Counted from the first letter of the stretch, positions 15,097-33,638 are shown. The stretch is DNA of 64,000 bases from Thermogemmata fonticola (GCF_013694095.1 NZ_JACEFB010000004.1:97638-161637), one strand, 5' to 3'. Notes: generated by a model not told the origin, from the letters alone. Numbers and translations: made by a program.

Positions 15097-15101
15097 TAAC
15101 C

Positions 15102-15668: not shown

Positions 15669-15690
15669 TATATTCACCAGGAGATTAGCT

Positions 15691-18588: not shown

Positions 18589-18603
18589 GAATACCATACA
18601 AAA

Positions 18604-19371: not shown

Positions 19372-20363
19372 CGGCCTTGCCTCTGGCTATACGCACAGTT
19401 CGTTGGATGATATGGGATACTTATCGTCAATCTCTGGCATCTCGTTTGTTATGGGTGATGCTCGGTTTGACTTTTTTATGCACTTTACTTTGCTTAAGTT
19501 TATCTGTCACTGGAGATGAATATTCGGCTAGCCATCCGTTTGAGTTGCCGATGTATGTCCCGGCAGCGGAGGCGGGGGAGGAGGTGCGGGCCGAGGGGAT
19601 TCGAGTCGTGTCGGGCGAGGTGTCGCTGGGGTTTGGGTTGGTGCGTTTTCCTGTGGGGCGGAGCCGGGCAGATGCGGTGCATTGGTTCCAGGTTTGGCTG
19701 GCTGGCGTGCTGGCGGACACGGTGGGAGTACTGCTGGCGCTGCTGTGGACAGCGGCGTATCTGCCACAGTTTTTGGAGCCGCAGTCGATCAGTGTGCTCT
19801 TGGCCCGGCCCACGCCGCGCTGGGCCTTGCTGACGGGCAAGTATCTGGGCGTTGTCCTCTTTGTGGGATTTCATGCATTTCTTTTTATATTCGCAACATG
19901 GTTTTCTATAGGATTAAAGACTGGTATTTGGGAAGTCCGTTATTGGTTCGCTTTGCCTATTTTGCTGATGAATTTTTCGGTGTTCTACGCATTCAGCGTG
20001 ATGCTTGCTGTATGTAGCCGCGGTGTTATGGTTCCGCTCTTTGGCACACTCTTGTTCTGGGTGCTATGTTGGGCGATGAATATCACGCGGCATACATTCC
20101 TGACGCTGGAGGCGGTGGAGTGGTCCACGCTGACGCCGCTGTTGGTGGAGGTGGGCTATTGGCTGTTGCCCAAGCCGCTGGATGGGAGCGGGCTGTTTTA
20201 CGAGGCGCTGCGGGCGGAGGGCGTAGCCGCTCCGGTCCCGGAGTGGGAAGCGGCGTGTGCGCGAGGAGCCGTCGTGCCGGAATTGTCCGTGCTGTCCTCC
20301 CTGCTCTTCGGCCTGGTCGTGCTGGTGCTGGCCGCTTGGGAGTTCCGCCGGGCGGAATACTGA
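19368..20363 (+). CDS. ABC-2 type transporter permease
   Basis: Six predicted TM helices. ATGA overlap with the upstream ATPase stop (translational coupling). Confidence 0.6.
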   Translation: MTALPLAIRTVRWMIWDTYRQSLASRLLWVMLGLTFLCTLLCLSLSVTGDEYSASHPFELPMYVPAAEAGEEVRAEGIRVVSGEVSLGFGLVRFPVGRSRADAVHWFQVWLAGVLADTVGVLLALLWTAAYLPQFLEPQSISVLLARPTPRWALLTGKYLGVVLFVGFHAFLFIFATWFSIGLKTGIWEVRYWFALPILLMNFSVFYAFSVMLAVCSRGVMVPLFGTLLFWVLCWAMNITRHTFLTLEAVEWSTLTPLLVEVGYWLLPKPLDGSGLFYEALRAEGVAAPVPEWEAACARGAVVPELSVLSSLLFGLVVLVLAAWEFRRAEY

Positions 20364-20621: not shown

Positions 20622-23369
20622 ATGAGAAGCAGAAGGGGTAAGCGCGGTTGGGTGGCTGTGGCCGTGGCGGCGATGTTGGCGGTGGGGTGCACGCGGCAAT
20701 TTTTCCGGGAGCGGGCCGACGCTGACGTGGAAGGGATATTGACGCAGAAGAATGTATTTCCGGAATGGGCAGTGCAGAATTGGCACGTGTATCCGGACCC
20801 GCGGTCGCGCTTTGCCGATCCGTATTCGCCGGACCATCCGCCGTATCCCCCCGATGATTATGCAGCGCGCTTGCTGTCGCCGAATCCGCAGCGGCCGGGG
20901 AAGAAGAGCGGGGTGGGGCGTTACGAGGGGACGGGGTATTTGGCGCTGTTGGCGCAGTGGGATGCAGCCAATCGAGCGGAGGGGGGAGAGGAAGTCCGGC
21001 CAGCGGGGGGATGGGTTATGCCGGAGGAGGCGGTCCCTGGGGAAGCGAACGGCGGAGAAGGTGGAGCGGGAGCGGAAGACGCAGGCGAGGAGAAGAAGGC
21101 GGCTCCTCCGCGGGGGGGAGAGGCGGAGGCAGCGGATTATCAGCGGGCGCTGCGGAGCGAGCAGCGGGGGTACCGCATCAAGCTGCACCAGGCGGTGGAG
21201 CTGGGTTTGCTCAACAGCCGGGAATTTCAAGACCGGCGGGAGGATTTGTATTTGGCGGCGCTGCAAGTGACGCTGTCGCGGTTCAATTTTGCGGCCCAAG
21301 CGTTTTTCGCGGAGCAGGTGTTCCGCCGGTCGATCGGGCAGGATTTGGGCGGCGGGGAGCTGTGGGACATCAATACGACGGCGGGCGTGAGCAAGCGCTT
21401 TCCGAGCGGGGCAGCGCTTTTGATCCAACTGGCGAATCAGGTGGTCATCGACCTGGGTTCCAACCGTCCGGACATCGCGGTGTCGAATTTGACGTTGAGC
21501 GTGCTCCAGCCGTTTTTGCGCGGCGGGGGTTTGGCGGTGAATTTGGAGAATTTGACAGCGGCGGAGCGGAACCTGGTGTATGCAATGCGGTCGTATGCGC
21601 GCTTTCGCAAGATTTACTATGTGTCGGTGGCGGCAGGAGGCGGACTGACGAACAATCCTTACGGACTGCAAGGTCTGGCGCCGAATTTGGGACGCGGGAT
21701 CGGGGGAAATTTGACCTCGCCGAGCGTGGGGTTTCTGCAATTGTTGCAGCAGGCGGCGCAGATAGCCAATCAGCGGAAGAATGTGGCGGAGTTGGAGCGG
21801 CTGTTGCGGTTGTACCGGGCGTTTCGGGAAGGGGGCCAGCAGTCGGATTTGCAAGTGGGTCAGGTGGAAGTGTCGATGCTCAGCAGCCGGGCGAATCTGC
21901 TCAACGGGGGTGGAGGTGCGCCGGGTTTGCGGCAGTATTTAGATCAGTTGGACAATTTCAAGCTGCAATTGGGTTTGCCGCTGACGGTGGCGCTGGAGCT
22001 GGACGACGAGCCGCTGCGGCCCATTCGGGAGCAGTTGGGACGGTTCGAGGCGATCTATGCGGACCTGCGGGCGGTGGAGGAGGCGGCACGGCAGTTTGAT
22101 CCCCAGGAACCGGTGGAGCGGTTCCGGGAGCGGTGGCGGCGCTTGCTGACGGAGTCGGCCCTGGTGAAAGGAACCCAGTTTGCCCGCGGTATAGAGAGTC
22201 GCTGGGAGTCATGGCGGCGGCTGACCGAGGACCAGTGGCAAGAACGGATGGCCCGATTGCGGCGGGAGCGGACGGAGTTGCTCAATCGCCGGGCGGAGCG
22301 GCAGCAAAAGGGGGAAGCGGAACCGGCCGAGGAGGCGGCCCGGCTGGAGGCATTGGAGAATGAGCTGGCCCTGGGAACGTTCGAGCGGGCGGTGCGGCAA
22401 TACGAGCAGCAGCCGTGGTTGAAGGAGAAAGGCCCGCAGCGGGAAAGTGTGCAGGCGGTAGCGTTCCGGGAGGTGGTCAACAGTTTTTATCAGGTGGTGC
22501 TGGAGGCGCGGGGGGAACGTTTGGAGCGGGTGCGGGGGCAGTGGCCGGCTTTGCCGCCGGTGGTGGTGGACGGGGTGGATGTGCTGCAAGCGCCGCTGGA
22601 CGAGGCATACGCGGCGGGCATGGCCACGGCATTGACCCACCGGCTGGACCTGATGAACGCCCGCGCCCTGGTGGTCGATGCCTGGCGGCAGATTGCGGTC
22701 CAGGCAAATTCCTTGCAAGGGGTGTTCGATGTTCGCTATGATATGACAGCAAGCACCCCCGCGGGGGAAAGTCGGCCGTTTGCCTTCGCCGCCGACCGAA
22801 CCCGCCACCAATTGACCTTCCGGGCCGAGTTGCCCCTGGTCCGCCGAGCGGAGCGGAACAACTACCGGGCGGCGCTGATCAGCTATCAACGGCAGCGGCG
22901 CACCCTGATGGCCTTCGAGGACAACATTGCCAATGACGTGCGTGCAGACATTCGCCAGTTGCGCACGTTGGCAGAGCTATACCGGATTCAGCAACGGGTG
23001 GTGGAGCTAGGCTACTCGCAGGTGGACAACGCCCAGGCGGTGCTGTTGCAGCCGCCGGACCCGCAGGCCCGGACCGACGCTGGCAGTGCCGCCGCCCTGA
23101 CACAACAGGTTCTGCAAACGCAAAGCAGCCTGCTCGCGGCTCAGAACCAGTTGTTCACTCTGTGGGTCAGCTATCTGACGGCCCGGATGCAACTCTACCT
23201 GGATTTGGAATTGTTGCACCTGGACGAGCGAGGAGTCTGGAACGATGACGCCGAGCACGGAATCGATGAGCCGGTCCGAGCCGTTCCCCGCCGTTGGCCT
23301 GCCGAGCGGCTCCCCCTCCCCCGGCCTGCCGCCGAGCCACTCCCCACTGCTCCCCGCCCCGCCCAGTAA
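20622..23369 (+). CDS. TolC-like outer-membrane efflux lipoprotein with long N-terminal low-complexity extension
   Basis: Lipobox 'LAVGC'. Coiled-coil/heptad-rich 900-aa body with two repeated halves, as in outer-membrane factors. 'aggagg' RBS and ATG at 20622. Confidence 0.55.
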   Translation: MRSRRGKRGWVAVAVAAMLAVGCTRQFFRERADADVEGILTQKNVFPEWAVQNWHVYPDPRSRFADPYSPDHPPYPPDDYAARLLSPNPQRPGKKSGVGRYEGTGYLALLAQWDAANRAEGGEEVRPAGGWVMPEEAVPGEANGGEGGAGAEDAGEEKKAAPPRGGEAEAADYQRALRSEQRGYRIKLHQAVELGLLNSREFQDRREDLYLAALQVTLSRFNFAAQAFFAEQVFRRSIGQDLGGGELWDINTTAGVSKRFPSGAALLIQLANQVVIDLGSNRPDIAVSNLTLSVLQPFLRGGGLAVNLENLTAAERNLVYAMRSYARFRKIYYVSVAAGGGLTNNPYGLQGLAPNLGRGIGGNLTSPSVGFLQLLQQAAQIANQRKNVAELERLLRLYRAFREGGQQSDLQVGQVEVSMLSSRANLLNGGGGAPGLRQYLDQLDNFKLQLGLPLTVALELDDEPLRPIREQLGRFEAIYADLRAVEEAARQFDPQEPVERFRERWRRLLTESALVKGTQFARGIESRWESWRRLTEDQWQERMARLRRERTELLNRRAERQQKGEAEPAEEAARLEALENELALGTFERAVRQYEQQPWLKEKGPQRESVQAVAFREVVNSFYQVVLEARGERLERVRGQWPALPPVVVDGVDVLQAPLDEAYAAGMATALTHRLDLMNARALVVDAWRQIAVQANSLQGVFDVRYDMTASTPAGESRPFAFAADRTRHQLTFRAELPLVRRAERNNYRAALISYQRQRRTLMAFEDNIANDVRADIRQLRTLAELYRIQQRVVELGYSQVDNAQAVLLQPPDPQARTDAGSAAALTQQVLQTQSSLLAAQNQLFTLWVSYLTARMQLYLDLELLHLDERGVWNDDAEHGIDEPVRAVPRRWPAERLPLPRPAAEPLPTAPRPAQ

Positions 23370-25377
23370 CCCGCCGCGCTTGCCGCCCCCGGCGTCCAGC
23401 CGCCGTCGGCCCCTCTGGCTTTTCGCTGGCTTCCTCCTCCTCGGCAGCATCGCCGGAACCACCTACTACTACACCCGGCCCGAAGCCGCCCCAGAAGGCG
23501 TCCTGCTCTACACGGTCAAGAAAGAGTTCCTCCACGTAACGGTGGTGGAGAAAGGAACGCTGGAGTCGGCGGACAATCGGGACTTAGTCTGCCGGGTGCG
23601 CGCCGGCAGCCGCGGCTTTGCTACCTCCATCAACTGGGTCATCGAAGATGGCGCCCGCGTCCGCCCCGGCCAGCTCCTCATGATCCTCGATGATTCCGCC
23701 CTCAAGGAACAAGAGGATAACCAAAGCGTCGTGGTCAAACGCGCCCTGGCGGCCAAGGTGAAAGCCGAAAAGGACTACGAAATCCAGATCAAAAAGAACG
23801 AAAGCCTCATCGCGGAAAAAGAGGCAGCTTACCTGCTGGCCCAAATCGAGCTGGACAAACTCACCGGCCTGAACGTGGACCCCAAGCGGCTGCCCCTGGC
23901 GGCCCTGGCCAGCCTGCCGGCCTCCTTAGTGGAAGGCGGTGCCTTCCAACAGCAACTCGACGACCTGACCGGCCAAATCTCCCTGGCCCGCTCCGATGTG
24001 GAACAATACCGCGAACGGGTGCACTGGGCTGAGCGCATGGTCAAAATGGCCTACATGAGTCCGGCGCAAGCCCAGGCGGAACGCTCCAAGCTCGACAGCG
24101 CCCTGGAAAAACTCCGCAGCCTGGAAGCCCAGCGCAAGCTCCTCATCTCCCACGACCGGCGGCAGAAAATCACCCAGTTGACCAGCGAACGGGACAACGC
24201 CCGCCGCGCCCTGGAACAAGCCCGCCTGGAAGCGGAAGCCCTAGAAATCCAATACCGCACCGAAATGGAGACCACCACCTCCATCTACGAACAGGAATTG
24301 GAAAAGCTGGAGGACATCCGCCGCCAGCGCCGGGAATGCCGCATCCACGCCCCGGAGGACATCCAGGATGGCTCCATGGTCGTGTACTTCAAGAACGAAA
24401 CCCGCCGCTTCAGCAGCAGTACTGACGGCCTGATCGAACAGGGGGCCCAGGTCAAAGAAGGGCAGAAACTCCTGCGGATTCCCAATCTGAGCGTCATGCA
24501 GGTCAATACCAAAGTGCACGAGGCGATGGTCTCGCGCCTGCGGGGAGAAATTCGGGTGCCGACCCGCATCGTGGAGTTCACCCAGATCGGCCTGCTGACC
24601 AATCCCCACCTCCTGGGCCGCATGGTAGCCACCCGCCCGGAAATCGTGGAAGACCTGCGCCACCGCTTCCGCCAGTACGAGTACCGCAAGATCGCTGACG
24701 GCCAGCGGGCTTACATCCGCATCGACGCCATGCCCGACCGGCAATTCGTCGGCTATGTCCGTTCCGTCTCGGCCGTTGCCAGCCAGGCGGACTCCTGGTT
24801 CTCCGACGTCAAGGTGTACCAGACCAATGTCCGCATCGAAGGGGAATTGCTGCCGGACGGCCGGATTGCCCCTCTGGAAGGGGAAATCCTCAAGCCCGAT
24901 ATGACTGCTGAGGTGACCATCCACGTGGAAGCCTCCAAGGAACCGGTACTGGTCGTGCCAATCCAGGCGATCATCGGCGGCGCGGAGATGGGCGCGGTGA
25001 GGGAGGTATTCGTCAAAACGGACAACGGTTACGAACGTCGCCAGGTTACCCTCGGCCTCTACAACGAGAGGATGGTCGAAATCCGCTCCGGACTAAGCGA
25101 AGGGGAACAGGTGGTGATCAACCCTCGCGTGCTGCTTGGCGATAGCAAGACCCGGACCCGCGAAGGACTGGAGAACACCAAGAAAGGGATGCGGGAACGG
25201 GGAGAGAAAGGCGGCGGAGAAGGGAACGGCGGCCCCAACGGCGGCGCTCCCGGCGGCGCTCCCGGCGGACCGAATGGGAGCGTTCCAGGGGCTGCTCCCG
25301 GCGGCAAAGGTTTCAAAGGCGGCAAGAAAGGCGGCGGCTTCTCCGGTCCTCCGCCGGCGGGCGCGCCGGGACTGTAG
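23266..25377 (+). CDS. HlyD-family membrane fusion (periplasmic adaptor) protein with Gly-rich C-terminal tail
   Basis: Single N-terminal TM ('LWLFAGFLLLGSIAG'), long coiled-coil hairpin, beta-barrel/lipoyl-like C-terminal region. C-terminus 'GGGEGNGGPNGGAPGG...'. The start overlaps the end of the OMF gene. Confidence 0.65.
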   Translation: MSRSEPFPAVGLPSGSPSPGLPPSHSPLLPAPPSNPPRLPPPASSRRRPLWLFAGFLLLGSIAGTTYYYTRPEAAPEGVLLYTVKKEFLHVTVVEKGTLESADNRDLVCRVRAGSRGFATSINWVIEDGARVRPGQLLMILDDSALKEQEDNQSVVVKRALAAKVKAEKDYEIQIKKNESLIAEKEAAYLLAQIELDKLTGLNVDPKRLPLAALASLPASLVEGGAFQQQLDDLTGQISLARSDVEQYRERVHWAERMVKMAYMSPAQAQAERSKLDSALEKLRSLEAQRKLLISHDRRQKITQLTSERDNARRALEQARLEAEALEIQYRTEMETTTSIYEQELEKLEDIRRQRRECRIHAPEDIQDGSMVVYFKNETRRFSSSTDGLIEQGAQVKEGQKLLRIPNLSVMQVNTKVHEAMVSRLRGEIRVPTRIVEFTQIGLLTNPHLLGRMVATRPEIVEDLRHRFRQYEYRKIADGQRAYIRIDAMPDRQFVGYVRSVSAVASQADSWFSDVKVYQTNVRIEGELLPDGRIAPLEGEILKPDMTAEVTIHVEASKEPVLVVPIQAIIGGAEMGAVREVFVKTDNGYERRQVTLGLYNERMVEIRSGLSEGEQVVINPRVLLGDSKTRTREGLENTKKGMRERGEKGGGEGNGGPNGGAPGGAPGGPNGSVPGAAPGGKGFKGGKKGGGFSGPPPAGAPGL

Positions 25378-25454
25378 GCTTTCCCCGCGCCCCGGCCTCC
25401 GGGCTTCCCCCGCCGTCCCTGCCCTTCACCGCTTGGCCCTGTGGGAATCATCGC

Positions 25455-26171
25455 ATGCCTGCCCTCGTGCAACTCGTGGACCTGGTCAAAAACTACTACA
25501 TGGGCACGCAGACGGTCCACGTCCTCAAGGGTTTGAACCTGTCGTTTGACGAGGGGGACTTTATCGCCCTGATGGGGCCGTCCGGTTCCGGCAAATCCAC
25601 GCTGCTCAACATCCTTGGCTGCCTGGACCGGCCCACCAGCGGGCGCTACTATCTGGCCGGCATGGATGTGTCCCAAATGGATGACGATCAGTTGTCCGAA
25701 ATCCGCAGCTCTTACCTGGGGTTTATCTTTCAATCTTACAATTTGCTGCCGCAGTACACCGTGGTAGAAAACATCGAACTGCCGTTGCTGTATCAGGGGG
25801 TCCGGCTGGACGAGCGGACGCGGCAGCATTGCATTGCCCTGGCGGAGATGGTGGGCTTGGGGGATCGGCTGGATCACCGGCCGCTGCAATTGTCCGGCGG
25901 GCAGCAGCAGCGCGTGGCTATCGCCCGCAGCCTGGTCAACAACCCCCACCTTATCCTCGGCGACGAACCGACCGGTAACCTCGACACCCGCACCAGCATC
26001 GAAATCATGCAGATGCTGCGCGAACTCAACCGCCTGGGGAAAACCATCATCATGGTGACCCACGAAAATGACATCGCAGCCTGGGCACGGCGGGTCGTGC
26101 GGCTGCGGGATGGACGGGTGGAATCGGATACCCGCAACGATAGCCGCACCGTGGTCGAGCTGCACGCGTGA
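25455..26171 (+). CDS. MacB/LolD-type ABC ATP-binding protein
   Basis: Walker A 'GPSGSGKST', Q-loop, signature 'LSGGQQQRVAIAR', Walker B 'ILGDEPTGNLD'. ATG at 25455. Confidence 0.85.
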   Translation: MPALVQLVDLVKNYYMGTQTVHVLKGLNLSFDEGDFIALMGPSGSGKSTLLNILGCLDRPTSGRYYLAGMDVSQMDDDQLSEIRSSYLGFIFQSYNLLPQYTVVENIELPLLYQGVRLDERTRQHCIALAEMVGLGDRLDHRPLQLSGGQQQRVAIARSLVNNPHLILGDEPTGNLDTRTSIEIMQMLRELNRLGKTIIMVTHENDIAAWARRVVRLRDGRVESDTRNDSRTVVELHA

Positions 26172-26986: not shown

Positions 26987-27100
26987 AGCTTTCCGCGCCC
27001 CCACGGGCTTCCACACCCTACGGGCAAAGAGAGTGAGACCCCGACCGCCGCGGCCCGGAGTTTGGCGTCCGGGGGAGCAGAATCGACGGGAGAGTTCGGA

Positions 27101-29461
27101 ATGATGGGAAACCGATGGCTCTGGTTCGGTGCACTGGCGGGGCTGCTGGGTCTGGATGTGTCTGCGACCGCTCAGGTGCCGCGGAAGTTCGCCGACATTG
27201 CCGAAGTCAAGGCGGAGATCGTGCCGGCGCAAGCCCGCCGAGGCCAGACCGTCACCTATCGCCTGACGGTGGCTCCCAAGCCCGGCGCCTGGACCTATCC
27301 CATCGCTCCCAAGACAGGACAGGCGTCTGTCACCAAGCTGGTGGCGCCGCCGCCGGGTGTGCTCATCTTCGTGACGCCCCCCGCCGATCCCCCCAATCAT
27401 CCCTGGAAGACCAAGACCGAGCCGGACGATCCGCTGCAAACCATTCAGTACAGTCCGACTCCGGTGACGTGGGAGTTGAAAGCGGTGGTTTCCCCCCAGG
27501 CCCCGGCGGGCCGGCATGCCGTCAAGCTCGATCGGCTGACGCTGCTGTCGGTGTGCAATGACTACGGTTGCGTCAACAGCCGTCCAGATGGGCGGGACCT
27601 GCCCGTGGCGGAGTTGGAAGTGCGCGATGAGCCGGCGGTTGCAGTTGAGGAAGCCTACCGGGCCGCGGTGGAAAAGGTGGTGGGACCGCTCGCGCCGTCG
27701 GGGCCAGCTCCGTCGCCCGCCCCTGGTGGTCCCACGCCGGGTCCAGGAACGGGGCCGTTGCCTCCGGCCCCTTCGCCGGGACCTTCTCCGTCGGGTCCCA
27801 CCTCCCGCCTGCGCCCCGCCAAGCCCGTGGAACAGTACGAAGCCGAGTTGGACGCTCTGCGCCAAGCCCTGCGGTTTGCTGAGGATACAGCGGGGGAAAG
27901 TGGACGCCGTACCGGTCTGTGGGGCTTTCTTCTGACCGCCGCCGCTTGGGGGTTGATCACGCTGCTGACGCCCTGTGTCTTCCCCATGATTCCGATCACG
28001 GTCAGCATTTTCCTCAAGCAAGGGGAGCAGTCGCCGCGGCGGACCTTGCTGCTGGCCGGGGTGTACTGTCTCACGATCATCGCCGTTCTGGGCGTGTCGG
28101 CCTTCTTCCTGCTTTCCACCTTCGTCGAGCTGAGCACCGATCCGTGGATGAACCTGGGGCTGTGCCTGCTGTTTGTGGTTTTCGCCCTGAGTTTGTTCGG
28201 GATGTATGAGGTGACGCTCTCGACGGTGCTGCTATTGGGGGGCGGGATGGCGGCCCTGGTGCTGGCCCCGCGCCTGGTCGACCGCTATGGCCTGGAGGCG
28301 GCGCTGCTGCTGGGAGGTGGTGGGGCCGCCGTCGCCATTCTTCTGTACGCGTGGGTCCGGCGCAGCGGCGGGGAAAGCGTGCTTTTGCGCTATTTGCAGC
28401 ACAAGCAAAGCGGGGGCGGCATCCTGGGAACCATCTTCGGGGCGATCGCGTTCACGCTGGTCGGTTTCACCTGTGTGGCGCCGTTTCTGGGGGGCTTTGC
28501 GGGTCTGAGCGCCTCGGGCCAGTTCAGTTCCGGGGAGCTGATGCTGGGGGCGTTGGCCTTTTCCGGGGCCTTCGCCGCTCCGTTTTTCCTTCTGGCGTTG
28601 TTTCCGAGTTTGCTGCGCCGCCTGCCGCGCTCCGGACAGTGGCTGGACACGATCAAGGTGGTCATGGGATTTTTGGAGCTGGCCGCCGCTGCCAAGTTCC
28701 TGCGCACGGCGGAGCTGCGCTGGCTGCCCGAAGCGGCTTATTGCACCTACGACGCTGTGCTGGCGGGCTGGATCGCTTTGAGCGCCGTCTGCGGCTTGTA
28801 CCTGCTCGGCCTGTTCCGCCTGCCGCACGATGAGGAAAGCCATCCCATCGGCGTGCCGCGCCTGCTCCTGGCCCTGGGCTTTCTGAGCCTGGCAGCCTAC
28901 CTGACCCCAGCGCTGTTTGTCGGCCCCGATGGCAAGCCCCAGCGGCCCCGCGGCGCCGTCTTCGCCTGGATCGATGCTTTCCTGCTCCCTGAACCGAGCC
29001 GGGAAGGCGAGCTGCCCTGGTCCTACGACCTGCCGGAGAGCGTCCAGCGCCTCGTTCAGGAAGCCCGCAAGAGCGGCCGGCCCCAGCCCCTGTTCCTGGA
29101 CTTCACCGGCGTGACCTGCACCAACTGCAAGTACAATGAGTTCCAGGTCTTCACCCAGCCGCGCATCCGCCAATTGCTGGAACGCTATCACCGCGTGCAG
29201 CTTTACACCGACGAAATCCCCGCCTCCCTCTACGCCGTCGACCCCGGCAGTTATGACCGCACCCGCGAAGCCCAAGCCAACCGCCTCTTCAAAATCGACC
29301 TTTTCGGCAATGACCAACTCCCGCTGTATGTGGTCATGCACGTGCTTCCTGATGGCGGCGTCCGGGTGTGGGGAGCTTACGATGAAGGCAAGATCAACGA
29401 GCCGGAACGCTTCGCCGCCTGGCTCGCCGCCGCTCTCGACGGCACCCCGCCCGCCCCGTGA
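27101..29461 (+). CDS. dsbD: Thiol:disulfide interchange protein DsbD (alpha domain + CcdA-like membrane core + C-terminal thioredoxin)
   Basis: Alpha domain 'VCNDYGC'. Membrane-core Cys 'TPCVFPMIPITVSIF' and 'GFTCVAPFLGG'. C-terminal thioredoxin 'GVTCTNCK'. ATG verified at 27101. Confidence 0.75.
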   Translation: MMGNRWLWFGALAGLLGLDVSATAQVPRKFADIAEVKAEIVPAQARRGQTVTYRLTVAPKPGAWTYPIAPKTGQASVTKLVAPPPGVLIFVTPPADPPNHPWKTKTEPDDPLQTIQYSPTPVTWELKAVVSPQAPAGRHAVKLDRLTLLSVCNDYGCVNSRPDGRDLPVAELEVRDEPAVAVEEAYRAAVEKVVGPLAPSGPAPSPAPGGPTPGPGTGPLPPAPSPGPSPSGPTSRLRPAKPVEQYEAELDALRQALRFAEDTAGESGRRTGLWGFLLTAAAWGLITLLTPCVFPMIPITVSIFLKQGEQSPRRTLLLAGVYCLTIIAVLGVSAFFLLSTFVELSTDPWMNLGLCLLFVVFALSLFGMYEVTLSTVLLLGGGMAALVLAPRLVDRYGLEAALLLGGGGAAVAILLYAWVRRSGGESVLLRYLQHKQSGGGILGTIFGAIAFTLVGFTCVAPFLGGFAGLSASGQFSSGELMLGALAFSGAFAAPFFLLALFPSLLRRLPRSGQWLDTIKVVMGFLELAAAAKFLRTAELRWLPEAAYCTYDAVLAGWIALSAVCGLYLLGLFRLPHDEESHPIGVPRLLLALGFLSLAAYLTPALFVGPDGKPQRPRGAVFAWIDAFLLPEPSREGELPWSYDLPESVQRLVQEARKSGRPQPLFLDFTGVTCTNCKYNEFQVFTQPRIRQLLERYHRVQLYTDEIPASLYAVDPGSYDRTREAQANRLFKIDLFGNDQLPLYVVMHVLPDGGVRVWGAYDEGKINEPERFAAWLAAALDGTPPAP

Positions 29462-29649
29462 TCATGATGACCTCGCCTTTCTTCCCCGCAGCTCCTTTGA
29501 AATGAGGAACCCCCCTAGCCCAACGGGCTTTTGATATAGCCTCCTCTCCTTGTCCTTGGGTAGAGTCTCCGGACCTTGTGGCTGTCATTTCCAGCCGGTA
29601 TCATGAGGCAACGGCAACCGATGACGGAGGGATTCTTCCAGAGGGTGTC

Positions 29650-30273
29650 ATGCCCGCATTTTCCTGTCCGGGGTGCAGGCAACTTTATGAGTATGCGGAA
29701 AGTGACAGCGGCCGACCCTTTATCTGCCCGCAATGTCGCACCCAGGGCCACCTGCCGCGCGAGGAGGAGGTGGAGTTGGCCGCTCCCTCCAGTCCGGCGG
29801 AGTGGCATGCCGCCTGCCCCCGCTGTTCCAGTTCGCTTCCCCTGGCCTGGCGTGCCCTGCACCGCTGGGTGCGCTGCCCGGTGTGCCAGTTGCTCTTTGT
29901 GGCCCGCCAGACGGTCAACCCTGCCCCCGCCGCCATCCCGATCAGTCCGCCTTCTGTTCCCCCTTCTTCCCAGCGTACTTCCAACCGCACTCTTGTCGGC
30001 GGTCTGCTGCTCGCAGGCGGCATCTGCGCCATCCTCAACGTCGCCGTGGCGGTGCTCTTCAGCGTTTTTCTCTGCTGTTTGTGGCCGGGAGTTTATCTGG
30101 CTCTGGGCTGGAGCATCGTGGCCATTGTCCGCGGCAGCCAAATGTTGAGTGTCGATTATCACGGTCCGCCGCCTCGCCTCCTGGCCATCCTGCAAATCCT
30201 TCTCATCATCAATCTCGATGTAGTGAACCTGATTCTGGGCATCGTCAACCTGGTCTCTTTGGAGAAATGGTGA
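29650..30273 (+). CDS. Hypothetical double zinc-ribbon membrane protein
   Basis: Two CxxC...CxxC pairs ('CPGC...CPQC', 'CPRC...CPVC'), Pro/Ser linker, two C-terminal TM helices. ATG at 29650. Confidence 0.4.
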   Translation: MPAFSCPGCRQLYEYAESDSGRPFICPQCRTQGHLPREEEVELAAPSSPAEWHAACPRCSSSLPLAWRALHRWVRCPVCQLLFVARQTVNPAPAAIPISPPSVPPSSQRTSNRTLVGGLLLAGGICAILNVAVAVLFSVFLCCLWPGVYLALGWSIVAIVRGSQMLSVDYHGPPPRLLAILQILLIINLDVVNLILGIVNLVSLEKW

Positions 30274-30362: not shown

Positions 30363-33300
30363 TCAGCGTGAGGAGGGGGGGTGATCCGCGGCGGGGGGCT
30401 GCTGGGGGAGGGGGAGCAGTTCGGGGTCGAGGAGGAAGAGCTGGCGTTTGCCAGCAGGTAGGCCGTCGTCGAGGAGGATTTTGTCGCGTTGGCGCAGGGC
30501 GTCAGCGGCAGCCCAAAGGGCCAGGCGGGTGTCGATGAGGAAGCGGCGCTGGGCGAGCAGATGCTGGCGGCGGCGCTCCAGATCGGCTTCCACTTCGGCG
30601 GGCGATTCCCCCTGTTGTAAGCGGCGGCGGCGCTCCTGGGCCAGTTGTTCCTCCTGGTGGGGCGAAAGGGCCTGGCGGGCGCGGACCCAGGCGAGGAAGG
30701 CGTCGTGATCCGCTTGGGCCGCTTGCCGGCGGGCCTCGGCCTCCGCTTCGGCCTGCCGCAGCAGCCGCTCCGCCTCTTCCCCGGCGCGGCGGACCAGGCG
30801 CAGGGCATCAGTGCGAGCTTCGTTGATGAGACGGTCCCGCTCCTGAATGGCCCGCGCCACGGCGTGATACGCCGGCACGACTTCCGGCGGGGGGTGCAGA
30901 TCGTGCAAAGTCAGACCCTCGATGGCGAGGCCGAAACTGGCTGCGTCGAGCTGGGCCAGCCGGCGGCGCAGACGCTGAAGGGCCTCCGCTTCCAACTCGC
31001 CGCGCCGCCGCGTCAGAATTTCCTGGAACGAACGGAGGGCGAACAGTTCCCGAAGTTGGGCTTCCAGTTCCCCGCGCAGCAGGTGGTCCGCGGACGCGAC
31101 TTCAAAGAGGAAGCGTTGCGGGTGCGCAACCCGGTAACGCAGCGTGGCGAAGACTTCGATGAGTTCGCCATCGGCGGTGATCATGAGGGCTTCGTCGGTC
31201 CGGGGTACGATCGGTCCGCCATGCGCGCTGGACCAGGTGAAGGCGGGGTCCGCCACGGGTTGGCGGCTGGATGCCGCGCCAAGTTCGCGGAAGCCCAGGG
31301 TCACGGTGCGTGTCCGATCCGGCGGCAGGCGGAGCACCGTTTCCACCGGCCAGGGCCAGCGCAGGTGCAATCCCGGTGTCAATTCCGCTACGGGCCGGCC
31401 CCAGCGCAGGACGATCCCCACCTCATCCGTAGCAATCGCCGTCAGGGTGGAACCGGCCCACAGTCCGCCGCCGAGCAATCCTGCGCCGAGCAATAGGACA
31501 CGCCAATGATGGGCGGCCGCGTGCAGCAGTTCTTCCACCGACCAGTTGTGCCAGCGGCGCTCCCACGCCCGCAGCCGTTGGAGCCACCGTCCCCACGCGG
31601 TCGTCGCGGGCCGTTCAAATGCCAGCAGACGCATCGCATTGAGGAGCACCAGCAGCGAGCCGAGTTGGTGATAAATCACGCCCAAAAGCGGCGCCTGGAG
31701 GAGGGCTTCCGGATGCGGCGCGAACCAGGGCCAGAGCCAGCCCGTTAGCAATACGCCCGCCAGATTGACGCCGAAGGCGAAGACGTAAAGATTCTGGCGG
31801 ATGATGCGCACCGTCTGGCGAGACAGGCGAACGAGAAAGGGCAAGGGGCGCAGCGGCTCGCCCATCAGGACGATGTCGCCCGCCTGAGCAGCCAGGTCGG
31901 TCCCGCTGCCCACCGCTATGCCGACGGTGGCACGGGCCAGGGCCGGGGCATCGTTGATCCCATCGCCGAGAAAGACAACGCCCCGTGCCGCATGCTCGGC
32001 CACCCAAGCTGCCTTGTCCGCCGGTAGCATGTCGGCGTGGACTTCCGTGACCGGCAGCTCCGCGGCGATCGCCGCCGCCACCGCCTGGCGATCCCCCGTC
32101 AACAAGGCCAGGGGAGAAAAGCCCAGCTCGCGCAGTTCCGCCAAAACCGGGGCGGCTTCGGAGCGGAGGCGGTCCTGGAGGCCGATCAGTCCCAGAATGG
32201 TCTGGTTCCGGGCGACGAGCAAGGCGATCTGCCCGCGGGCATCGGCCTGATCCAGAGCGTGCCGGACCTGGTCTTCCGCGATGCAACCCAGGGCGGTGAG
32301 GAAGCGGAGATTGCCGACGGCCAGGCGGCTGCCCTCCGCGGTCGTCGCAATGACTCCGCCGCCCGGCTGGGTGGACACCGGAGTGACACTGCTGTCCGGA
32401 CTCCAGCCGCGCTGCCGGGCCGCAGCCAGCACCGCCTGTGCCAAGGGGTGTTCGCTTCCCTGCTCAGCCAGGGCCGCTTGCCGCAGAAGTTCGCCTTCAT
32501 CCACGTCCGGAGCGAGGGGTTGCAGATAAACCACATTCAGCCGTCCCTCGGTCAGAGTGCCGGTCTTGTCGCAAGCCCAGACTTGGGCCGAAGCCAGACG
32601 TTCCAGGGCCGAACCGCCTTTGAGCAGGACACCGCTGCCCGCCAGGCGTCCCAGAGCCGCGATGACCGCTGCCGGAGTCGCCAGCACAAGCGCGCAGGGG
32701 CAAGCCACTACCAGCACGCCCAGGGCGGGATACAGAGCGCTGATCGCCGCGGCACGCCAACTCGGCGGGGGTAGATCAGGAGCACTAGGGGCGGACCAGC
32801 GCTGCAAGAGCAGATTGGCGGCGAAGGTGAGAAGGGCCAGGGCCACGACCAGGGGGAGGAAGTAGCGCGCCCAGCGGTCCGCTTGCCGTTCTAGGGGGGC
32901 TTTGTCCCGCAGGGCCTGCACGGTCAGTTCGATAAGTCGGCCGGCGACAGTGTCCTTGCCTGTCTGGCGGGCCTCAATGGTCAGGGGCGCGTCGCAGACA
33001 ATACTGCCGGCCAGGACTTTGTCCCCCTCCTGTTTTTCCACCGGCACGCTTTCACCGGTCAAAGCACTGACATCGACCGCCGCCCGGCCCGCTACCACGA
33101 CTCCATCCACCGGCACTCGCCCGCCCGGCTTGACCACCACGCAATCGCCCACCTGCACATCGGCCACATACGCCCGCACTTCCTGCCCATCCCGCAGCAC
33201 CCAGCAGCGGCGCGGAAACAACTCCGCCAGGCGGCCCAACGCCCGTTGCGTCCGGCCAAACACCCAGGCTTCCAGGCATTCCCCGATTAGGCCGATGGCG

Positions 33301-33638
33301 GTCACCTCCGCGGCGACCAGCACTTCACCCAAGGCCAAGGCCGCCAGCACCGCGACGGCCAGCGCCAGGTCCACCCCCACGCGCCCCCGCAGAAGGGCTT
33401 CCAGCGACAAATACAGAATCCGCCCACCGCCGAGCAAAGCCGCTAGCATCGCCCAGCGCATGCCCCCCACGGTCCGCGGCCAGGTGTAACTGCTGATGCC
33501 CCAGGACGTGAGCTGTTCCGCCACCCACGGCCAGAGGTCCGCCAGCAGCAAACCCGTCACCACCCCGGTGACCAGGTATAGCCCCCAGGGCGCCTCCACA
33601 CGGAACGGATCATGACTCGCCGCTGCTTCCCGATGCAT
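30363..33638 (-). CDS. P1B-type heavy-metal translocating ATPase fused to C-terminal HflK/HflC-like SPFH (band-7) domain
   Basis: ATPase motifs 'TGES', 'CPC', 'DKTGTLT', 'SEHPLA', 'GDGINDAPAL'. No N-terminal HMA domain. After the last ATPase TM pair come an extra TM and 'VGIVLRWGRPV...PGLHLRWPWPVETV...LHDLHPPPEVVPAYHAVARAIQERDRLINEA' (SPFH/HflK blocks), then a long coiled coil. Single uninterrupted 1091-codon ORF. Confidence 0.8.
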   Translation of the reverse strand: MHREAAASHDPFRVEAPWGLYLVTGVVTGLLLADLWPWVAEQLTSWGISSYTWPRTVGGMRWAMLAALLGGGRILYLSLEALLRGRVGVDLALAVAVLAALALGEVLVAAEVTAIGLIGECLEAWVFGRTQRALGRLAELFPRRCWVLRDGQEVRAYVADVQVGDCVVVKPGGRVPVDGVVVAGRAAVDVSALTGESVPVEKQEGDKVLAGSIVCDAPLTIEARQTGKDTVAGRLIELTVQALRDKAPLERQADRWARYFLPLVVALALLTFAANLLLQRWSAPSAPDLPPPSWRAAAISALYPALGVLVVACPCALVLATPAAVIAALGRLAGSGVLLKGGSALERLASAQVWACDKTGTLTEGRLNVVYLQPLAPDVDEGELLRQAALAEQGSEHPLAQAVLAAARQRGWSPDSSVTPVSTQPGGGVIATTAEGSRLAVGNLRFLTALGCIAEDQVRHALDQADARGQIALLVARNQTILGLIGLQDRLRSEAAPVLAELRELGFSPLALLTGDRQAVAAAIAAELPVTEVHADMLPADKAAWVAEHAARGVVFLGDGINDAPALARATVGIAVGSGTDLAAQAGDIVLMGEPLRPLPFLVRLSRQTVRIIRQNLYVFAFGVNLAGVLLTGWLWPWFAPHPEALLQAPLLGVIYHQLGSLLVLLNAMRLLAFERPATTAWGRWLQRLRAWERRWHNWSVEELLHAAAHHWRVLLLGAGLLGGGLWAGSTLTAIATDEVGIVLRWGRPVAELTPGLHLRWPWPVETVLRLPPDRTRTVTLGFRELGAASSRQPVADPAFTWSSAHGGPIVPRTDEALMITADGELIEVFATLRYRVAHPQRFLFEVASADHLLRGELEAQLRELFALRSFQEILTRRRGELEAEALQRLRRRLAQLDAASFGLAIEGLTLHDLHPPPEVVPAYHAVARAIQERDRLINEARTDALRLVRRAGEEAERLLRQAEAEAEARRQAAQADHDAFLAWVRARQALSPHQEEQLAQERRRRLQQGESPAEVEADLERRRQHLLAQRRFLIDTRLALWAAADALRQRDKILLDDGLPAGKRQLFLLDPELLPLPQQPPAADHPPSSR

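What the first reader, a model, noticed from the sequence alone, without database searches (positions are those of the whole stretch)
30363..33638. Heavy-metal P1B-ATPase covalently fused to an HflK/HflC-like SPFH (band-7) domain
One uninterrupted 1091-codon ORF holds a complete CPC-type P1B ATPase: TGES, CPC, DKTGT, HP and GDGINDAP motifs, eight TMs, and no N-terminal HMA domain. It is followed by an extra TM and a roughly 380-aa module with unmistakable HflK/HflC blocks ('VGIVLRWGRPV', 'PGLHLRWPWPVETV', 'LHDLHPPPEVVPAYHAVARAIQERDRLINEA') plus a long C-terminal coiled coil. SPFH proteins normally scaffold membrane microdomains or regulate FtsH as separate polypeptides. A translational fusion to an ion pump suggests a self-scaffolding or oligomerising metal exporter. 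It may also indicate quality-control coupling, since HflK/C gate FtsH. I do not know this architecture as a described family.
Basis: partly seen in the sequence, partly recalled or inferred. Interest (0 to 1): 0.8.

Follow-up and report, generated by a model that had tools for sequence, protein, structure and literature searches.

The report
Metal pump fused to HflK scaffold
This gene really does encode a heavy-metal export pump joined in one protein to a complete HflK-type membrane-scaffold module, and it belongs to a widespread, apparently undescribed class in which three unrelated kinds of metal exporter are fused to HflK, usually in an operon with HflC and a second HflK.

Summary
ORF 30363-33638 (-) encodes 1091 aa: a complete P1B ATPase with no HMA domain, a 40-aa linker, a ninth TM helix, then a full HflK-type SPFH module. 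Pfam Band_7 scores 82.5 bits; Foldseek's best hits are HflK chains, E 2.7e-16.

It is not a frameshift artefact. All 120 best homologues (94-52% identity) and 80 of 80 species-level loci are colinear fusions.

New here:
- The same HflK-type module is fused C-terminally to two other exporter families: CDF and SO_0444 Cu/Zn efflux.
- In all six operons examined across the three exporter types, the fusion is followed by hflC and a plain hflK.
- The ATPase fusion occurs in Planctomycetota, Acidobacteriota, Abditibacteriales and Sumerlaeota.
- The window copy is a solitary Gemmata-type variant with no SPFH partner or ftsH in 64 kb.
- ATPase and CDF fusions share an SPFH1 insertion (W-x-S-x-H) that free HflK and HflC lack.

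Most likely mechanism (inferred): the pump is covalently anchored to an HflK/C-like periplasmic assembly, forming a scaffolded metal-efflux platform. Metal specificity, stoichiometry and FtsH involvement are untested. Seven literature searches found no description of this architecture.

The parts
30363..33638 (-). Whole ORF: 1091 codons plus stop, P1B-ATPase fused to HflK-type SPFH module
33264..33590 (-). N-terminal membrane helices MA, MB, M1, M2 (res 17-125); no HMA metal-binding domain before them
   Evidence: Hydropathy; AF2 helices 18-45, 62-83, 90-102, 106-140; no HMA hit in Pfam
32640..33221 (-). E1-E2_ATPase region (res 140-333): actuator domain with TGES 194-197, then M3 and M4
   Evidence: Pfam E 9.6e-54; TGES invariant
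32694..32702 (-). M4 metal-site motif CPC (res 313-315)
   Evidence: Invariant in 77 family members; xCPC in 34 of the 35 divergent full-length fusion representatives, one has CSC
31929..32576 (-). HAD-type P and N domains (res 355-570) with DKTGT 357-361, HP 397-398, GDGINDAP 558-565
   Evidence: Pfam Hydrolase 6.3e-25; motifs invariant
31632..31847 (-). M5-M6 helices (res 598-669) with N625 and Y656-H657-Q658-x-G-S661...N667, and a Trp-rich periplasmic loop (GWLWPWFAP)
   Evidence: family signature N-X20 (or X29-31)-H-[Q/E]-x-x-S; H657 aligns with the His of sCoaT's HEGST and with the Met of CopA's MxxSS
31506..31625 (-). Cytoplasmic linker (res 672-711), Arg- and His-rich, two short helices; R676 and H706 invariant
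31440..31505 (-). Ninth transmembrane helix (res 712-733), positioned like HflK's own membrane anchor
   Evidence: Hydropathy; AF2 helix 712-729; aligns with the end of the E. coli HflK TM helix and the start of its SPFH domain, though that short stretch is not significant on its own
30804..31436 (-). SPFH / Band_7 domain (res 735-945), predicted periplasmic
   Evidence: Pfam 82.5 bits; AF2 pLDDT above 90 over most of it; Foldseek best hits are HflK chains, E 2.7e-16
31200..31286 (-). Insertion in SPFH subdomain 1 (res 785-813) carrying T-W802-S-S-A-H806; shared by ATPase- and CDF-fused HflK modules, absent from free HflK and HflC
   Evidence: Alignment; motif counts 103/116 ATPase fusions, 83/83 CDF fusions, 0/66 SO_0444 fusions; W802 and H806 invariant; low model confidence here
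30489..30881 (-). Coiled-coil region (res 920-1050); about 55 residues longer than in E. coli HflK (a planctomycete-specific insertion at about 985-1040)
   Evidence: AF2 helices; alignment
30366..30488 (-). C-terminal tail (res 1051-1091) with R1051-D-K1053-I-L-L-D1057, matching E. coli HflK 'TRKVLVND'; the end is disordered
   Evidence: short strands in the AF2 model

Best explanation
The gene encodes an ATP-driven transition-metal exporter that is covalently anchored to an HflK-type SPFH scaffold.

Layout. The pump is a P1B ATPase with CPC in M4, H-Q-x-G-S in M6 and no cytoplasmic HMA sensor domain. After its eighth helix the chain runs through a 40-residue cytoplasmic linker and crosses the membrane once more (TM9). 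It then forms, on the periplasmic face, a complete HflK: SPFH1/2, a long coiled coil and the C-terminal cap motif.

Proposed mechanism, by analogy with E. coli HflK/C. The HflK modules oligomerise into a ring, arc or cage. Pumps are thereby stationed at the rim of an SPFH-delimited membrane patch, giving a built-in 'efflux platform'. Functionally this resembles the mycobacterial PacL-Ctp effluxosome, but with a fused, periplasmic and unrelated scaffold.

Wider class. The protein belongs to a class of [metal exporter-HflK]-[HflC]-[HflK] modules. In the operonic forms, the plain HflK and HflC would dilute the bulky pump-bearing subunit within a mixed assembly. The window's gene is a derived, solitary Gemmata-type copy that must either self-assemble or use partners encoded elsewhere.

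What is shown: domain architecture, HflK-type identity, fold, conservation, operon context in relatives, and recurrence across three exporter families.

What is inferred: periplasmic location, oligomerisation, the platform function, and a divalent-metal (Zn/Co/Cd-like) substrate.
For: Architecture and integrity.

Conserved fusion: 120 of 120 top homologues and 80 of 80 species-level loci matching across the junction. 35 full-length representatives at the 50%-identity cluster level share one pump signature.

HflK identity of the module:
- Only HflK matches among PDB sequences.
- Foldseek's top hits are HflK chains of the HflK/C-FtsH structures, over about 300 columns.
- In the tree, all fused modules group with E. 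coli HflK and operon gene 3, apart from the operon gene 2 sequences, 100/100 bootstrap, rooted on E. coli HflC.
- The C-terminal RDKxLxD motif is shared with E. coli HflK.

A genuine HflK/C system in relatives: 6 of 6 operons examined have gene 2 = HflC above the curated cutoff (157-223 bits against 134). Gene 3 = HflK is above cutoff in 5 of 6. 41 of 80 planctomycete loci have these partners directly downstream.

Link to metal export specifically: the same module is fused to CDF transporters with HxxxD/HxxxD sites and no cytoplasmic C-terminal domain. It is also fused to SO_0444-family Cu/Zn efflux transporters (NF033936, 327.7 bits against cutoff 300).

Adaptation specific to the fusions: the W-x-S-x-H insertion in SPFH1.

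Precedents:
- Clustering of P1B pumps by a scaffold is required for Cd tolerance in M. tuberculosis (PMC13460109).
- An SPFH cage (stomatin) encapsulates transporters (PMC12407830).
- The HflK/C cage has 12 HflK subunits and encloses membrane clients (PMC13220708).
Against: - No oligomer was modelled or observed; the AF2 runs were monomers.
- The window's module scores below the curated HflK equivalog cutoff (114.6 against 159.4).
- The gene has no hflC or hflK within 64 kb, and its 3' end faces a convergent gene. The partner requirement seen in relatives is therefore not met locally.
- A pump on every protomer of a closed HflK-like ring looks sterically difficult. This is my inference from the relative size of an 8-helix pump with its cytoplasmic head against one SPFH protomer.
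- Topology rests on hydropathy, homology to HflK and charge distribution; the charge bias right next to TM9 is weak.
- No expression, localisation or metal data exist.
- Relationships within the HflK clade are unresolved (support 12-18% for monophyly of the ATPase-fused modules). Single against multiple origins of the fusions is open.
Confidence: 0.55

Rival explanations
1. Built-in degradation adaptor. The HflK module places the pump inside or next to an FtsH-containing HflK/C cage. FtsH can then rapidly remove the exporter when it is not needed, or when it is damaged. On this view the fusion exists for regulated turnover or quality control rather than for clustering.
For: HflK is the subunit type that makes specific contacts with FtsH, and the cage is proposed to concentrate substrates around FtsH (PMC13220708). 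The fused module is HflK-type. [quoted passage not shown] FtsH-dependent turnover of the Mg2+ P-type ATPase MgtA is established knowledge from my own memory, not checked here.
Against: No FtsH-like ORF lies in the held flanks (up to 6 kb each side) of any of the 88 loci, or in the 64-kb window. This is weak evidence, since ftsH is also absent from the 6 kb around hflKC in E. coli. A constitutive tether to a protease seems a costly way to regulate a 1091-aa pump. Residues that contact FtsH were not compared. Nothing here tests proteolysis.
Confidence: 0.15
2. Periplasmic sensor or hand-off domain. The SPFH module acts in cis on its own pump, in particular through the fusion-specific W-x-S-x-H insertion and the Trp-rich M5-M6 loop. 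It would either sense periplasmic metal or membrane state and gate transport, or receive the released ion. This would replace the missing cytoplasmic regulatory domains (HMA in P1B pumps, the C-terminal domain in CDFs).
For: Both the ATPase and the CDF fusions lack their usual cytoplasmic metal-binding regulatory domains. They share an SPFH1 insertion with invariant Trp and His that free HflK and HflC lack. The planctomycete pumps have a longer, conserved periplasmic M5-M6 loop. SPFH proteins such as stomatin are known to regulate channels and transporters (PMC12407830 abstract).
Against: SO_0444 fusions lack the W-x-S-x-H motif (0 of 66), so it cannot be the general reason for the fusions. 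One His and one Trp do not make a metal site. The insertion is modelled with low confidence. The full coiled coil and cap motif, and the co-operonic hflC and hflK, argue for assembly rather than a purely cis-acting domain.
Confidence: 0.15
3. Evolutionary leftover. In the Gemmata-type lineage the hflC and hflK partners were lost. The HflK module is then a functionally neutral or merely stabilising appendage on an otherwise ordinary metal pump.
For: The gene is solitary in the window and in 23 of the 64 informative loci. The loci that rank closest to the window protein are solitary wherever enough downstream sequence is held. The module scores below the HflK equivalog cutoff.
Against: The module is strongly conserved along its whole length across solitary homologues down to 52% identity, including the cap motif and the W/H insertion. 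A neutral 390-aa appendage would be expected to decay or be truncated. The operonic planctomycete copy P0148 also scores below cutoff (124.4; its gene 3 scores 107.4), so the low score reflects lineage divergence rather than decay.
Confidence: 0.05
4. Assembly or sequencing artefact that joins two separate genes.
For: Read-level data for this window were not available.
Against: The fusion is colinear in all 120 best homologues and in 80 of 80 species-level loci from independent assemblies, with conserved linker residues.
Confidence: 0.01

Closest known systems
E. coli HflK/HflC-FtsH complex (PDB 7VHP/7VHQ, 7WI3, 9CZ2, 9PAW)
   Same: The C-terminal 390 aa have the HflK layout: one TM helix, SPFH, a long coiled coil and the C-terminal RDKxLxD-type motif. 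HflK is the only PDB sequence match (E 6e-13) and the best structural match. Relatives keep adjacent hflC and hflK genes.
   Different: HflK's short cytoplasmic N-terminal tail is replaced by a whole 8-helix ATP-driven metal pump. There is an extra W-x-S-x-H insertion in SPFH1 and about 55 extra coiled-coil residues. The score is below the HflK equivalog cutoff. There is no adjacent hflC in this window, and no evidence for or against FtsH binding.
Mycobacterial effluxosomes (PacL1-3 scaffolds with the P1B-ATPases CtpC, CtpG, CtpV; PMC13460109)
   Same: The concept is the same: P1B metal-efflux pumps held in membrane clusters by a dedicated single-TM scaffold encoded with the pump. Clustering itself is needed for metal tolerance.
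   Different: PacL is a small separate DUF1490 protein with a cytoplasmic EA-repeat region that binds the pump's N-terminal metal-binding domain. Here the scaffold is an unrelated SPFH/HflK module, predicted periplasmic and covalently fused, and the pump has no metal-binding domain. This is functional analogy only; there is no homology.
Classical P1B-ATPases: CopA (P1B-1), ZntA (P1B-2), sCoaT/CtpD (P1B-4), CtpC (P1B-6-like)
   Same: All catalytic motifs, eight TM helices and CPC in M4. The best PDB sequence and fold matches are CopA, sCoaT and ZntA. The protein passes TIGR01525 and TIGR01512.
   Different: No HMA domain. M5/M6 carry N-X31-H-Q-x-G-S instead of CopA's YN...MxxSS. TM4 has CPC where P1B-4 has SPC. 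The P1B-6 hallmark N-X18-H-N-X-(S/T) is not matched exactly. The C-terminal HflK fusion is unique to this clade.
Stomatin cage enclosing AQP1 and UT-B (PMC12407830)
   Same: An SPFH oligomer physically associated with membrane transporters. Stomatin is also among the top structural matches.
   Different: The association there is non-covalent, with clients inside a cytoplasmic-face dome. Here the link is covalent and the module is predicted periplasmic.
CDF-HflK and SO_0444-HflK fusion proteins (uncharacterised; annotated only as 'HflK' or as the exporter)
   Same: The same HflK-type module fused C-terminally through a linker plus one TM helix. The operon is the same: hflC then hflK. CDF fusions share the W-x-S-x-H insertion.
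   Different: The transporter superfamily and energy coupling differ (secondary transporters against an ATPase). They occur in other phyla (Eisenbacteria, Latescibacterota, Phycisphaerae, Deltaproteobacteria, Limnocylindrales). Their HflK modules score above the equivalog cutoff (169-222 bits).

Membership tests
P-type ATPase, subclass P1B (heavy-metal pumps) | Catalytic motifs: TGES (actuator), DKTGT (phosphorylated Asp), HP (N domain), GDGxNDxP (P domain) | tested here: met
   All present and invariant in 77 family members. TIGR01525 scores 545 bits against cutoff 346.
P-type ATPase, subclass P1B (heavy-metal pumps) | Cys-Pro-x metal-site motif in TM4 and an eight-helix membrane domain (MA, MB, M1-M6) | tested here: met
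   CPC at 313-315 is invariant. Eight helices by hydropathy and by AF2. The fold matches CopA, sCoaT and ZntA.
P-type ATPase, subclass P1B (heavy-metal pumps) | N-terminal HMA/ferredoxin-like metal-binding domain (usual, but not obligatory) | tested here: not met
   No HMA hit in Pfam at E <= 0.1. Only 17 residues precede helix MA.
P-type ATPase, subclass P1B (heavy-metal pumps) | Metal-dependent ATP hydrolysis and transport | not testable with these tools
   Needs biochemistry.
P1B-1 (Cu+ pumps, CopA type) | TM5 YN and TM6 MxxSS metal ligands; TIGR01511 at or above cutoff | tested here: not met
   In the alignment to L. pneumophila CopA (3rfu), YN aligns with VN, M with H657, and SS with G660-S661. 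TIGR01511 scores 382 bits, below cutoff 397.
P1B-2 (Zn/Cd/Pb pumps, ZntA type) | CPC in TM4 plus the ZntA-type TM5 Lys / TM6 Asp ligands (motif recalled from memory); TIGR01512 at or above cutoff | tested here: inconclusive
   TIGR01512 scores 419.7 bits, above cutoff 313.5, and CPC is present. However, M6 carries H-Q where an acidic ligand would be expected. The ZntA equivalog models score far below their cutoffs.
P1B-4 (Co/Ni/Zn/Fe pumps, sCoaT/CtpD type) | SPC in TM4 (PMC13460109); HEGxT-type motif in TM6 (from memory, and seen in the sCoaT alignment) | tested here: not met
   TM4 is CPC, not SPC. The TM6 motif H657-Q-L-G-S aligns in register with sCoaT's H-E-G-S-T, and some family members have HEGSS or HEGAS. 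This is resemblance in TM6 only.
P1B-6 (CtpC-like) | N-X18-H-N-X-(S/T) between TM5 and TM6 (PMC13460109) | tested here: not met
   The family has N-X20-H-[Q/E]-x-x-S, or N-X29-31 in the planctomycete type; the window has X31. Similar in kind, different in spacing and residues.
SPFH / Band_7 superfamily | Match to the Band_7 profile above the gathering score, and the SPFH alpha/beta fold followed by a coiled coil | tested here: met
   Pfam 82.5 bits against 23.6. AF2 model pLDDT 88.8. Foldseek hits to HflK, stomatin, erlin, QmcA, prohibitin and flotillin.
HflK (FtsH protease activity modulator) | Equivalog-level profile match (TIGR01933 at or above 159.4 bits) | tested here: not met
   114.6 bits. 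Fused modules of other lineages do pass: P0341 222, P0264 169, P0212 192 bits.
HflK (FtsH protease activity modulator) | Groups phylogenetically with HflK rather than with its paralogue HflC | tested here: met
   NJ tree, 100/100 bootstrap for the split between HflK-type sequences and the operon gene 2 (HflC-type) sequences, rooted on E. coli HflC. No hflC model hit at E <= 0.01.
HflK (FtsH protease activity modulator) | N-in single TM anchor with a periplasmic SPFH domain | tested here: inconclusive
   This is predicted from eight pump helices plus TM9 and from alignment of TM9 and the SPFH start with HflK (a weak stretch). There is no experimental topology.
HflK (FtsH protease activity modulator) | Encoded next to, and assembling with, HflC | tested here: not met
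   No second SPFH gene in the 64-kb window, and the downstream gene is convergent. The feature is met in relatives: 41 of 80 planctomycete loci and 6 of 6 examined operons. Assembly itself is not testable here.
HflK (FtsH protease activity modulator) | Binds and modulates FtsH | not testable with these tools
   No ftsH is linked in any locus. Linkage is not expected in any case, since ftsH is absent from the 6 kb around hflKC in E. coli.
PacL-Ctp effluxosome | DUF1490 (PacL) scaffold encoded upstream of the pump and binding its N-terminal metal-binding domain | tested here: not met
   No DUF1490 hit in the protein, the upstream gene is a PALP enzyme, and the pump has no metal-binding domain. 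The comparison is of working principle only.

The most novel reading that the evidence does not exclude
Bacteria from at least eight named lineages build HflK/HflC-type SPFH assemblies that carry a covalently attached transition-metal exporter. The exporter is a P1B-ATPase, a CDF or an SO_0444 transporter, fused to a specialised HflK paralogue and normally co-expressed with HflC and plain HflK. This would be a previously unrecognised metal-handling membrane microcompartment. It would also be the first natural case in which the client of an SPFH cage is written into the scaffold's own polypeptide. The Gemmata-type protein in this window would be a variant that has become independent of the operon partners.
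Probability: 0.4. Interest if true: 0.85.

Novelty: new variant of a known kind. Interest (0 to 1): 0.72.

Why it matters
What SPFH cages (HflK/C, prohibitin, stomatin, flotillin) actually do, and which membrane proteins are their clients, is still debated. Here evolution has hard-wired a client to the scaffold at least once, and possibly three times. In every case the client is a transition-metal exporter, and the usual partner genes are hflC and hflK.

That yields a concrete, testable hypothesis: metal efflux benefits from, or requires, an SPFH-delimited membrane patch. It also offers tractable constructs for cryo-EM, because the client stoichiometry is fixed by the fusion.

The finding generalises the 'efflux platform' idea, so far known only from mycobacterial PacL-Ctp effluxosomes, to an unrelated scaffold and to many phyla.

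It defines a P1B clade (CPC plus H-[Q/E]-x-x-S, no HMA) that fits none of the seven described subclasses and whose substrate is unknown.

On the practical side, hundreds of these proteins are annotated as only one of their halves: 'Cu+-exporting ATPase', 'HflK', or 'SO_0444 family Cu/Zn efflux transporter'.

Tried and rejected
- Frameshift or chimera artefact: rejected.
- A partner hflC, hflK or a second ATPase in the window: phmmer of both halves against all window ORFs found nothing but the gene itself.
- Linked ftsH: E. coli FtsH against all ORFs of 88 loci and the window gave no hit.
- Conserved synteny as a functional clue: only close relatives share the PALP, histidine kinase and DsbD-like neighbours. 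Frigoriglobus and a 2.3-Mb planctomycete contig (L004; its protein P0081 carries a Singulisphaera-related name) differ completely. There is no metallochaperone or metal regulator.
- Exact look-up of the window protein in the assembly index: not on record.
- Rfam scan for a metal riboswitch or other RNA near the gene: only one tRNA in the window.
- Promoter and terminator scans: uninformative, no more sites than in shuffled sequence.
- Filing the pump under P1B-1, -2, -4 or -6: none fits fully.
- A Biopython bootstrap timed out and a first distance run failed on saturated distances. I re-implemented it with capped Kimura distances. Resolution inside the HflK clade stayed poor, so I make no claim on single against multiple origins of the fusions.
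- The Foldseek search with the full-length model returned only pumps among the 50 listed hits, so the C-terminal module was modelled and searched separately.
- Seven literature searches for any exporter-SPFH fusion found none.

Full report
**1.

The window has one uninterrupted ORF at 30363..33638 on the minus strand, 1091 codons with an ATG start.

Pfam places three domains:
- E1-E2_ATPase at residues 140-333, E 9.6e-54.
- Hydrolase at 355-570, E 6.3e-25.
- Band_7/SPFH at 735-945, E 5.1e-23, 82.5 bits against a gathering score of 23.6.

NCBIfam gives TIGR01525 (heavy-metal P-type ATPase) 545 bits against a cutoff of 346, over residues 90-671. The hflK model TIGR01933 scores 114.6 bits on residues 735-983, below its equivalog cutoff of 159.4.

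All catalytic motifs are present, and all are invariant in a 77-member alignment: TGES 194-197, CPC 313-315, DKTGT 357-361, HP 397-398, GDGINDAP 558-565.

Hydropathy finds eight pump helices plus a ninth at 712-733. The AF2 model agrees (mean pLDDT 76.9). After helix 712-729 it shows an alpha/beta domain at 732-915 and helices at 920-989, 993-1008 and 1013-1050. No HMA domain is detected, and only 17 residues precede the first helix.

**2. It is a real, conserved gene**

The 120 best hits in a 5.8-billion-protein collection all carry the same three Pfam domains. All but one (a 979-aa fragment) are 1058-1163 aa long, and identity falls from 94% to 52%. They come from independent JGI, ENA, NCBI and Logan assemblies, including Mb-scale contigs. 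Named members include Thermogemmata, Gemmata, Frigoriglobus, Fimbriiglobus, Urbifossiella and Isosphaera, and one carries a Singulisphaera-related name.

Linker residues R676 and H706 are invariant and W712 nearly so.

A scan of one genome per species with a junction-spanning alignment found 260 relatives. All 80 retrieved loci match straight across M6, linker, TM9 and SPFH. A frameshift or chimera is therefore excluded. Read-level data for this particular assembly were not available.

**3. What the two halves are**

*The pump.* The closest solved relatives by sequence and by fold are CopA, sCoaT and ZntA. The metal-site signature is unusual: CPC in M4, N625 in M5, and Y656-H657-Q658-x-G660-S661...N667 in M6.
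- HMMER aligns H657-Q658 with the H-E of sCoaT's HEGST (a P1B-4 pump), and with the Met of CopA's MxxSS.
- All 35 full-length fusion representatives from an exhaustive search share xCPC (one has CSC) and H-[Q/E]-x-x-[S/A].
- The spacing is N-X20-H outside Planctomycetota and N-X29-31-H in the planctomycete type. The latter has an extra Trp-rich periplasmic loop.
- This matches none of the seven published subclasses exactly. P1B-4 has SPC in TM4, and P1B-6 has N-X18-H-N-X-(S/T) (PMC13460109). TIGR01511 (Cu) falls below its cutoff, while TIGR01512 (Cd/Zn family) passes.
- A divalent substrate (Zn/Co/Cd-like) is my inference. It has not been shown.

*The C-terminal module.*
- Among all PDB sequences, only HflK matches (E 6e-13), and the alignment starts at HflK's own TM helix.
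- Modelled alone with a deeper alignment (pLDDT 88.8), its best structural matches are HflK chains of the HflK/C-FtsH cryo-EM structures (E 2.7e-16, about 300 columns). Stomatin, erlin, QmcA, prohibitin and flotillin follow; all of these are cage-forming SPFH proteins.
- In a neighbour-joining tree rooted on E. coli HflC, every fused module groups with E. coli HflK and apart from the operon gene 2 (HflC-type) sequences, with 100/100 bootstrap.
- The C-terminal R-D-K-I-L-L-D motif corresponds to E. coli HflK's T-R-K-V-L-V-N-D.

The fused part is therefore a whole HflK from its membrane anchor onward. The pump takes the place of HflK's cytoplasmic N-terminal tail. Eight pump helices (N-in, C-in) plus TM9 predict a periplasmic SPFH module, as in HflK. 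This is inferred, not measured.

**4. The wider picture (new in this analysis)**

An exhaustive phmmer search with residues 676-1091 against 1.84 billion representatives gave 4925 hits, 115 of them at E <= 1e-30. The best 150 sort as follows:
- 35 are full-length ATPase fusions.
- 43 are N-truncated fragments of such fusions.
- 72 have no match to the pump; most of these are fragments that begin inside the SPFH module.
- Among those 72, nine representatives of 557-598 aa are Cation_efflux (CDF) + Band_7, and one of 739 aa is ArsP_1 + Band_7.

Both of the other fusion types are large families:
- CDF-HflK: 117 of the 120 listed clusters have both domains on record, and the other three are short fragments. 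Some are from Candidatus Eisenbacteria.
- SO_0444-HflK: 119 of the 120 listed clusters have both domains on record. Named members come from Phycisphaerae, Deltaproteobacteria, Latescibacterota and Limnocylindrales. The ArsP_1 part scores as 'SO_0444 family Cu/Zn efflux transporter' above the curated cutoff (327.7 against 300).

The CDF parts keep the HxxxD (TM2) and HxxxD (TM5) metal site but lack the cytoplasmic C-terminal domain.

The ATPase fusion also occurs outside Planctomycetota: in a Bryobacteraceae (Acidobacteriota) MAG, in Abditibacteriales and in Candidatus Sumerlaeota.

**5. Operon context**

In six operons, two for each exporter type (L005, L006, L007, L008, L091, L092), the fusion gene is followed on the same strand by two SPFH genes. 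The spacing is tight, and in several operons the genes overlap.
- Gene 2 scores as HflC above the curated cutoff in all six (156.6-222.8 bits against 134.4).
- Gene 3 scores as HflK above the cutoff in five of six.

The general module is therefore [metal exporter-HflK]-[HflC]-[HflK].

Among the 80 planctomycete loci, 41 have these partners directly downstream, 23 are solitary with at least 1.5 kb of downstream sequence visible, and 16 are undetermined. The loci that rank closest to the window protein are solitary wherever enough downstream sequence is held.

In the window itself:
- No other SPFH or P-type ATPase ORF exists in 64 kb.
- The gene's 3' end faces a convergent ORF.
- The neighbours are a PALP enzyme, a histidine kinase and a DsbD-like protein. 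This synteny is shared only with close relatives.
- No FtsH-like ORF lies in the window or in the held flanks of any locus.

**6. A fusion-specific feature**

ATPase- and CDF-fused HflK modules share an insertion of about 25-45 residues in SPFH subdomain 1, with a conserved W-x-[S/T]-x-H. The window has T-W802-S-S-A-H806, and CDF fusions have Y-E-W-E-S-R-H. The insertion is absent from E. coli HflK and HflC and from operon genes 2 and 3.

Motif counts are 103 of 116 close ATPase fusions, 83 of 83 scorable CDF fusions, and 0 of 66 SO_0444 fusions. W802 and H806 are invariant in the family. The loop is modelled with low confidence. Its role is unknown.

**7. Mechanism**

*Shown:* the architecture, the HflK-type identity and fold, conservation, co-operonic HflC and HflK in relatives, and recurrence on three unrelated transition-metal exporter families.

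*Inferred:* the HflK module assembles into an HflK/C-like ring, arc or cage and so stations pumps at an SPFH-delimited membrane patch.

Published work makes this plausible:
- E. coli HflK/C has 12 HflK subunits, encloses FtsH, and opens to admit membrane proteins (PMC13220708).
- Stomatin domes encapsulate AQP1 and UT-B (PMC12407830).
- In M. tuberculosis, the separate PacL scaffolds cluster P1B pumps into 'effluxosomes', and the clustering itself is needed for Cd tolerance (PMC13460109).

A pump on every protomer of a closed ring looks sterically strained. This is my inference. The plain hflK in the operons would be a natural spacer subunit. The solitary window gene must either self-assemble or use partners supplied in trans.

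Three rivals remain open: FtsH-coupled turnover of the pump, a cis-acting periplasmic sensor or hand-off role for the module, and a vestigial appendage. Strong conservation of the whole module argues against the last.

**8. Novelty**

The proteins are in public databases, but each is named for only one half ('Cu+-exporting ATPase', 'cation-translocating P-type ATPase family protein', 'FtsH protease activity modulator HflK', 'SO_0444 family Cu/Zn efflux transporter').

Seven full-text searches found no paper describing an exporter-SPFH fusion or the operon. The library does not include most subscription-journal papers, so a prior description cannot be excluded.

I rate it a new variant of known kinds (an HflK/C system with a hard-wired client, and a P1B clade with a new C-terminal domain), and of high interest for SPFH and metal-homeostasis biology.

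**9. Limits**

- There is no multimer model and no experimental topology, substrate, expression or FtsH data.
- The tree does not resolve relationships inside the HflK clade.
- Only the best 80 of 260 genome hits were inspected.
- 'Solitary' means no partner within the sequence held, which is up to about 6 kb on each side.

Noticed in passing
L007 6001-9003; L005 7001-8719; L091 6001-8172: Systematic half-annotation. PGAP names a 1000-aa Bryobacteraceae ATPase-HflK fusion simply 'FtsH protease activity modulator HflK'. CDF-HflK fusions are also named 'HflK', and SO_0444-HflK fusions are named only for the transporter. JGI calls the ATPase fusions 'Cu+-exporting ATPase', although the Cu-type model TIGR01511 is below its cutoff for the window protein.
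   Followed up: partly
window 14000-18600: A marked low-GC stretch (0.47-0.56 against about 0.65 elsewhere). It encodes two TadE-like proteins (14500-15096, 15093-15668) and a 965-aa protein with a Tad/TadG-like N-terminus (15691-18588). It may be a horizontally acquired Tad-pilus-related island.
   Followed up: partly
window 9062-11110 (-): A 682-aa ORF with a NicO (nickel/cobalt transporter) domain at residues 342-469, so a second putative metal transporter lies about 20 kb from the fusion gene. The ORF is much longer than the 287-position NicO profile.
   Followed up: no
window 29578-30273 (+): The convergent downstream ORF (231 aa) has several CxxC pairs (CPGC, CPQC, CPRC, CPVC; zinc-ribbon-like by eye) and a hydrophobic C-terminal half, but no Pfam match. 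It is absent at this position in the close relatives L001 and L002.
   Followed up: partly
window 20622-26171 (+): An apparent tripartite efflux cluster: an OEP/TolC-like protein (915 aa), an HlyD/membrane-fusion-like protein (710 aa, weak hits) and an ABC ATPase (238 aa). A second ABC ATPase plus ABC-2 permease pair lies at 18604-20363.
   Followed up: no
L001 and L002 807-2156: In the Thermogemmata-like relatives, an hflX-type GTPase gene lies about 6 kb upstream of the fusion gene. In E. coli, hflX sits directly upstream of hflK-hflC. This could be coincidence or a remnant of ancestral hflX-hflK-hflC synteny. No hflX was seen at the corresponding place in the window.
   Followed up: no
L028, L047, L058, L067: Four of the five contigs labelled 'uncultured Alcaligenaceae bacterium' (L047 included) carry Gemmataceae-type ATPase-HflK operons with 46-49% identity to the window junction. 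The bins are probably taxonomically mislabelled.
   Followed up: no
window 31728-31754 (res 629-637) and family alignment: Planctomycete-type fusion pumps have an M5-M6 periplasmic loop about 11 residues longer, with a conserved Trp-rich motif (GWLWP...W-Y-E-x-A-P). The non-planctomycete fusions lack it (N-X20-H against N-X29-31-H). It may contact the periplasmic SPFH module.
   Followed up: partly
window 27062-29461 (+): The DsbD_TM-containing protein is unusually long (799 aa). It has a roughly 280-aa N-terminal region that includes a Pro-rich stretch, and a C-terminal thioredoxin-like domain. It is a neighbour of the fusion gene in close relatives only.
   Followed up: no
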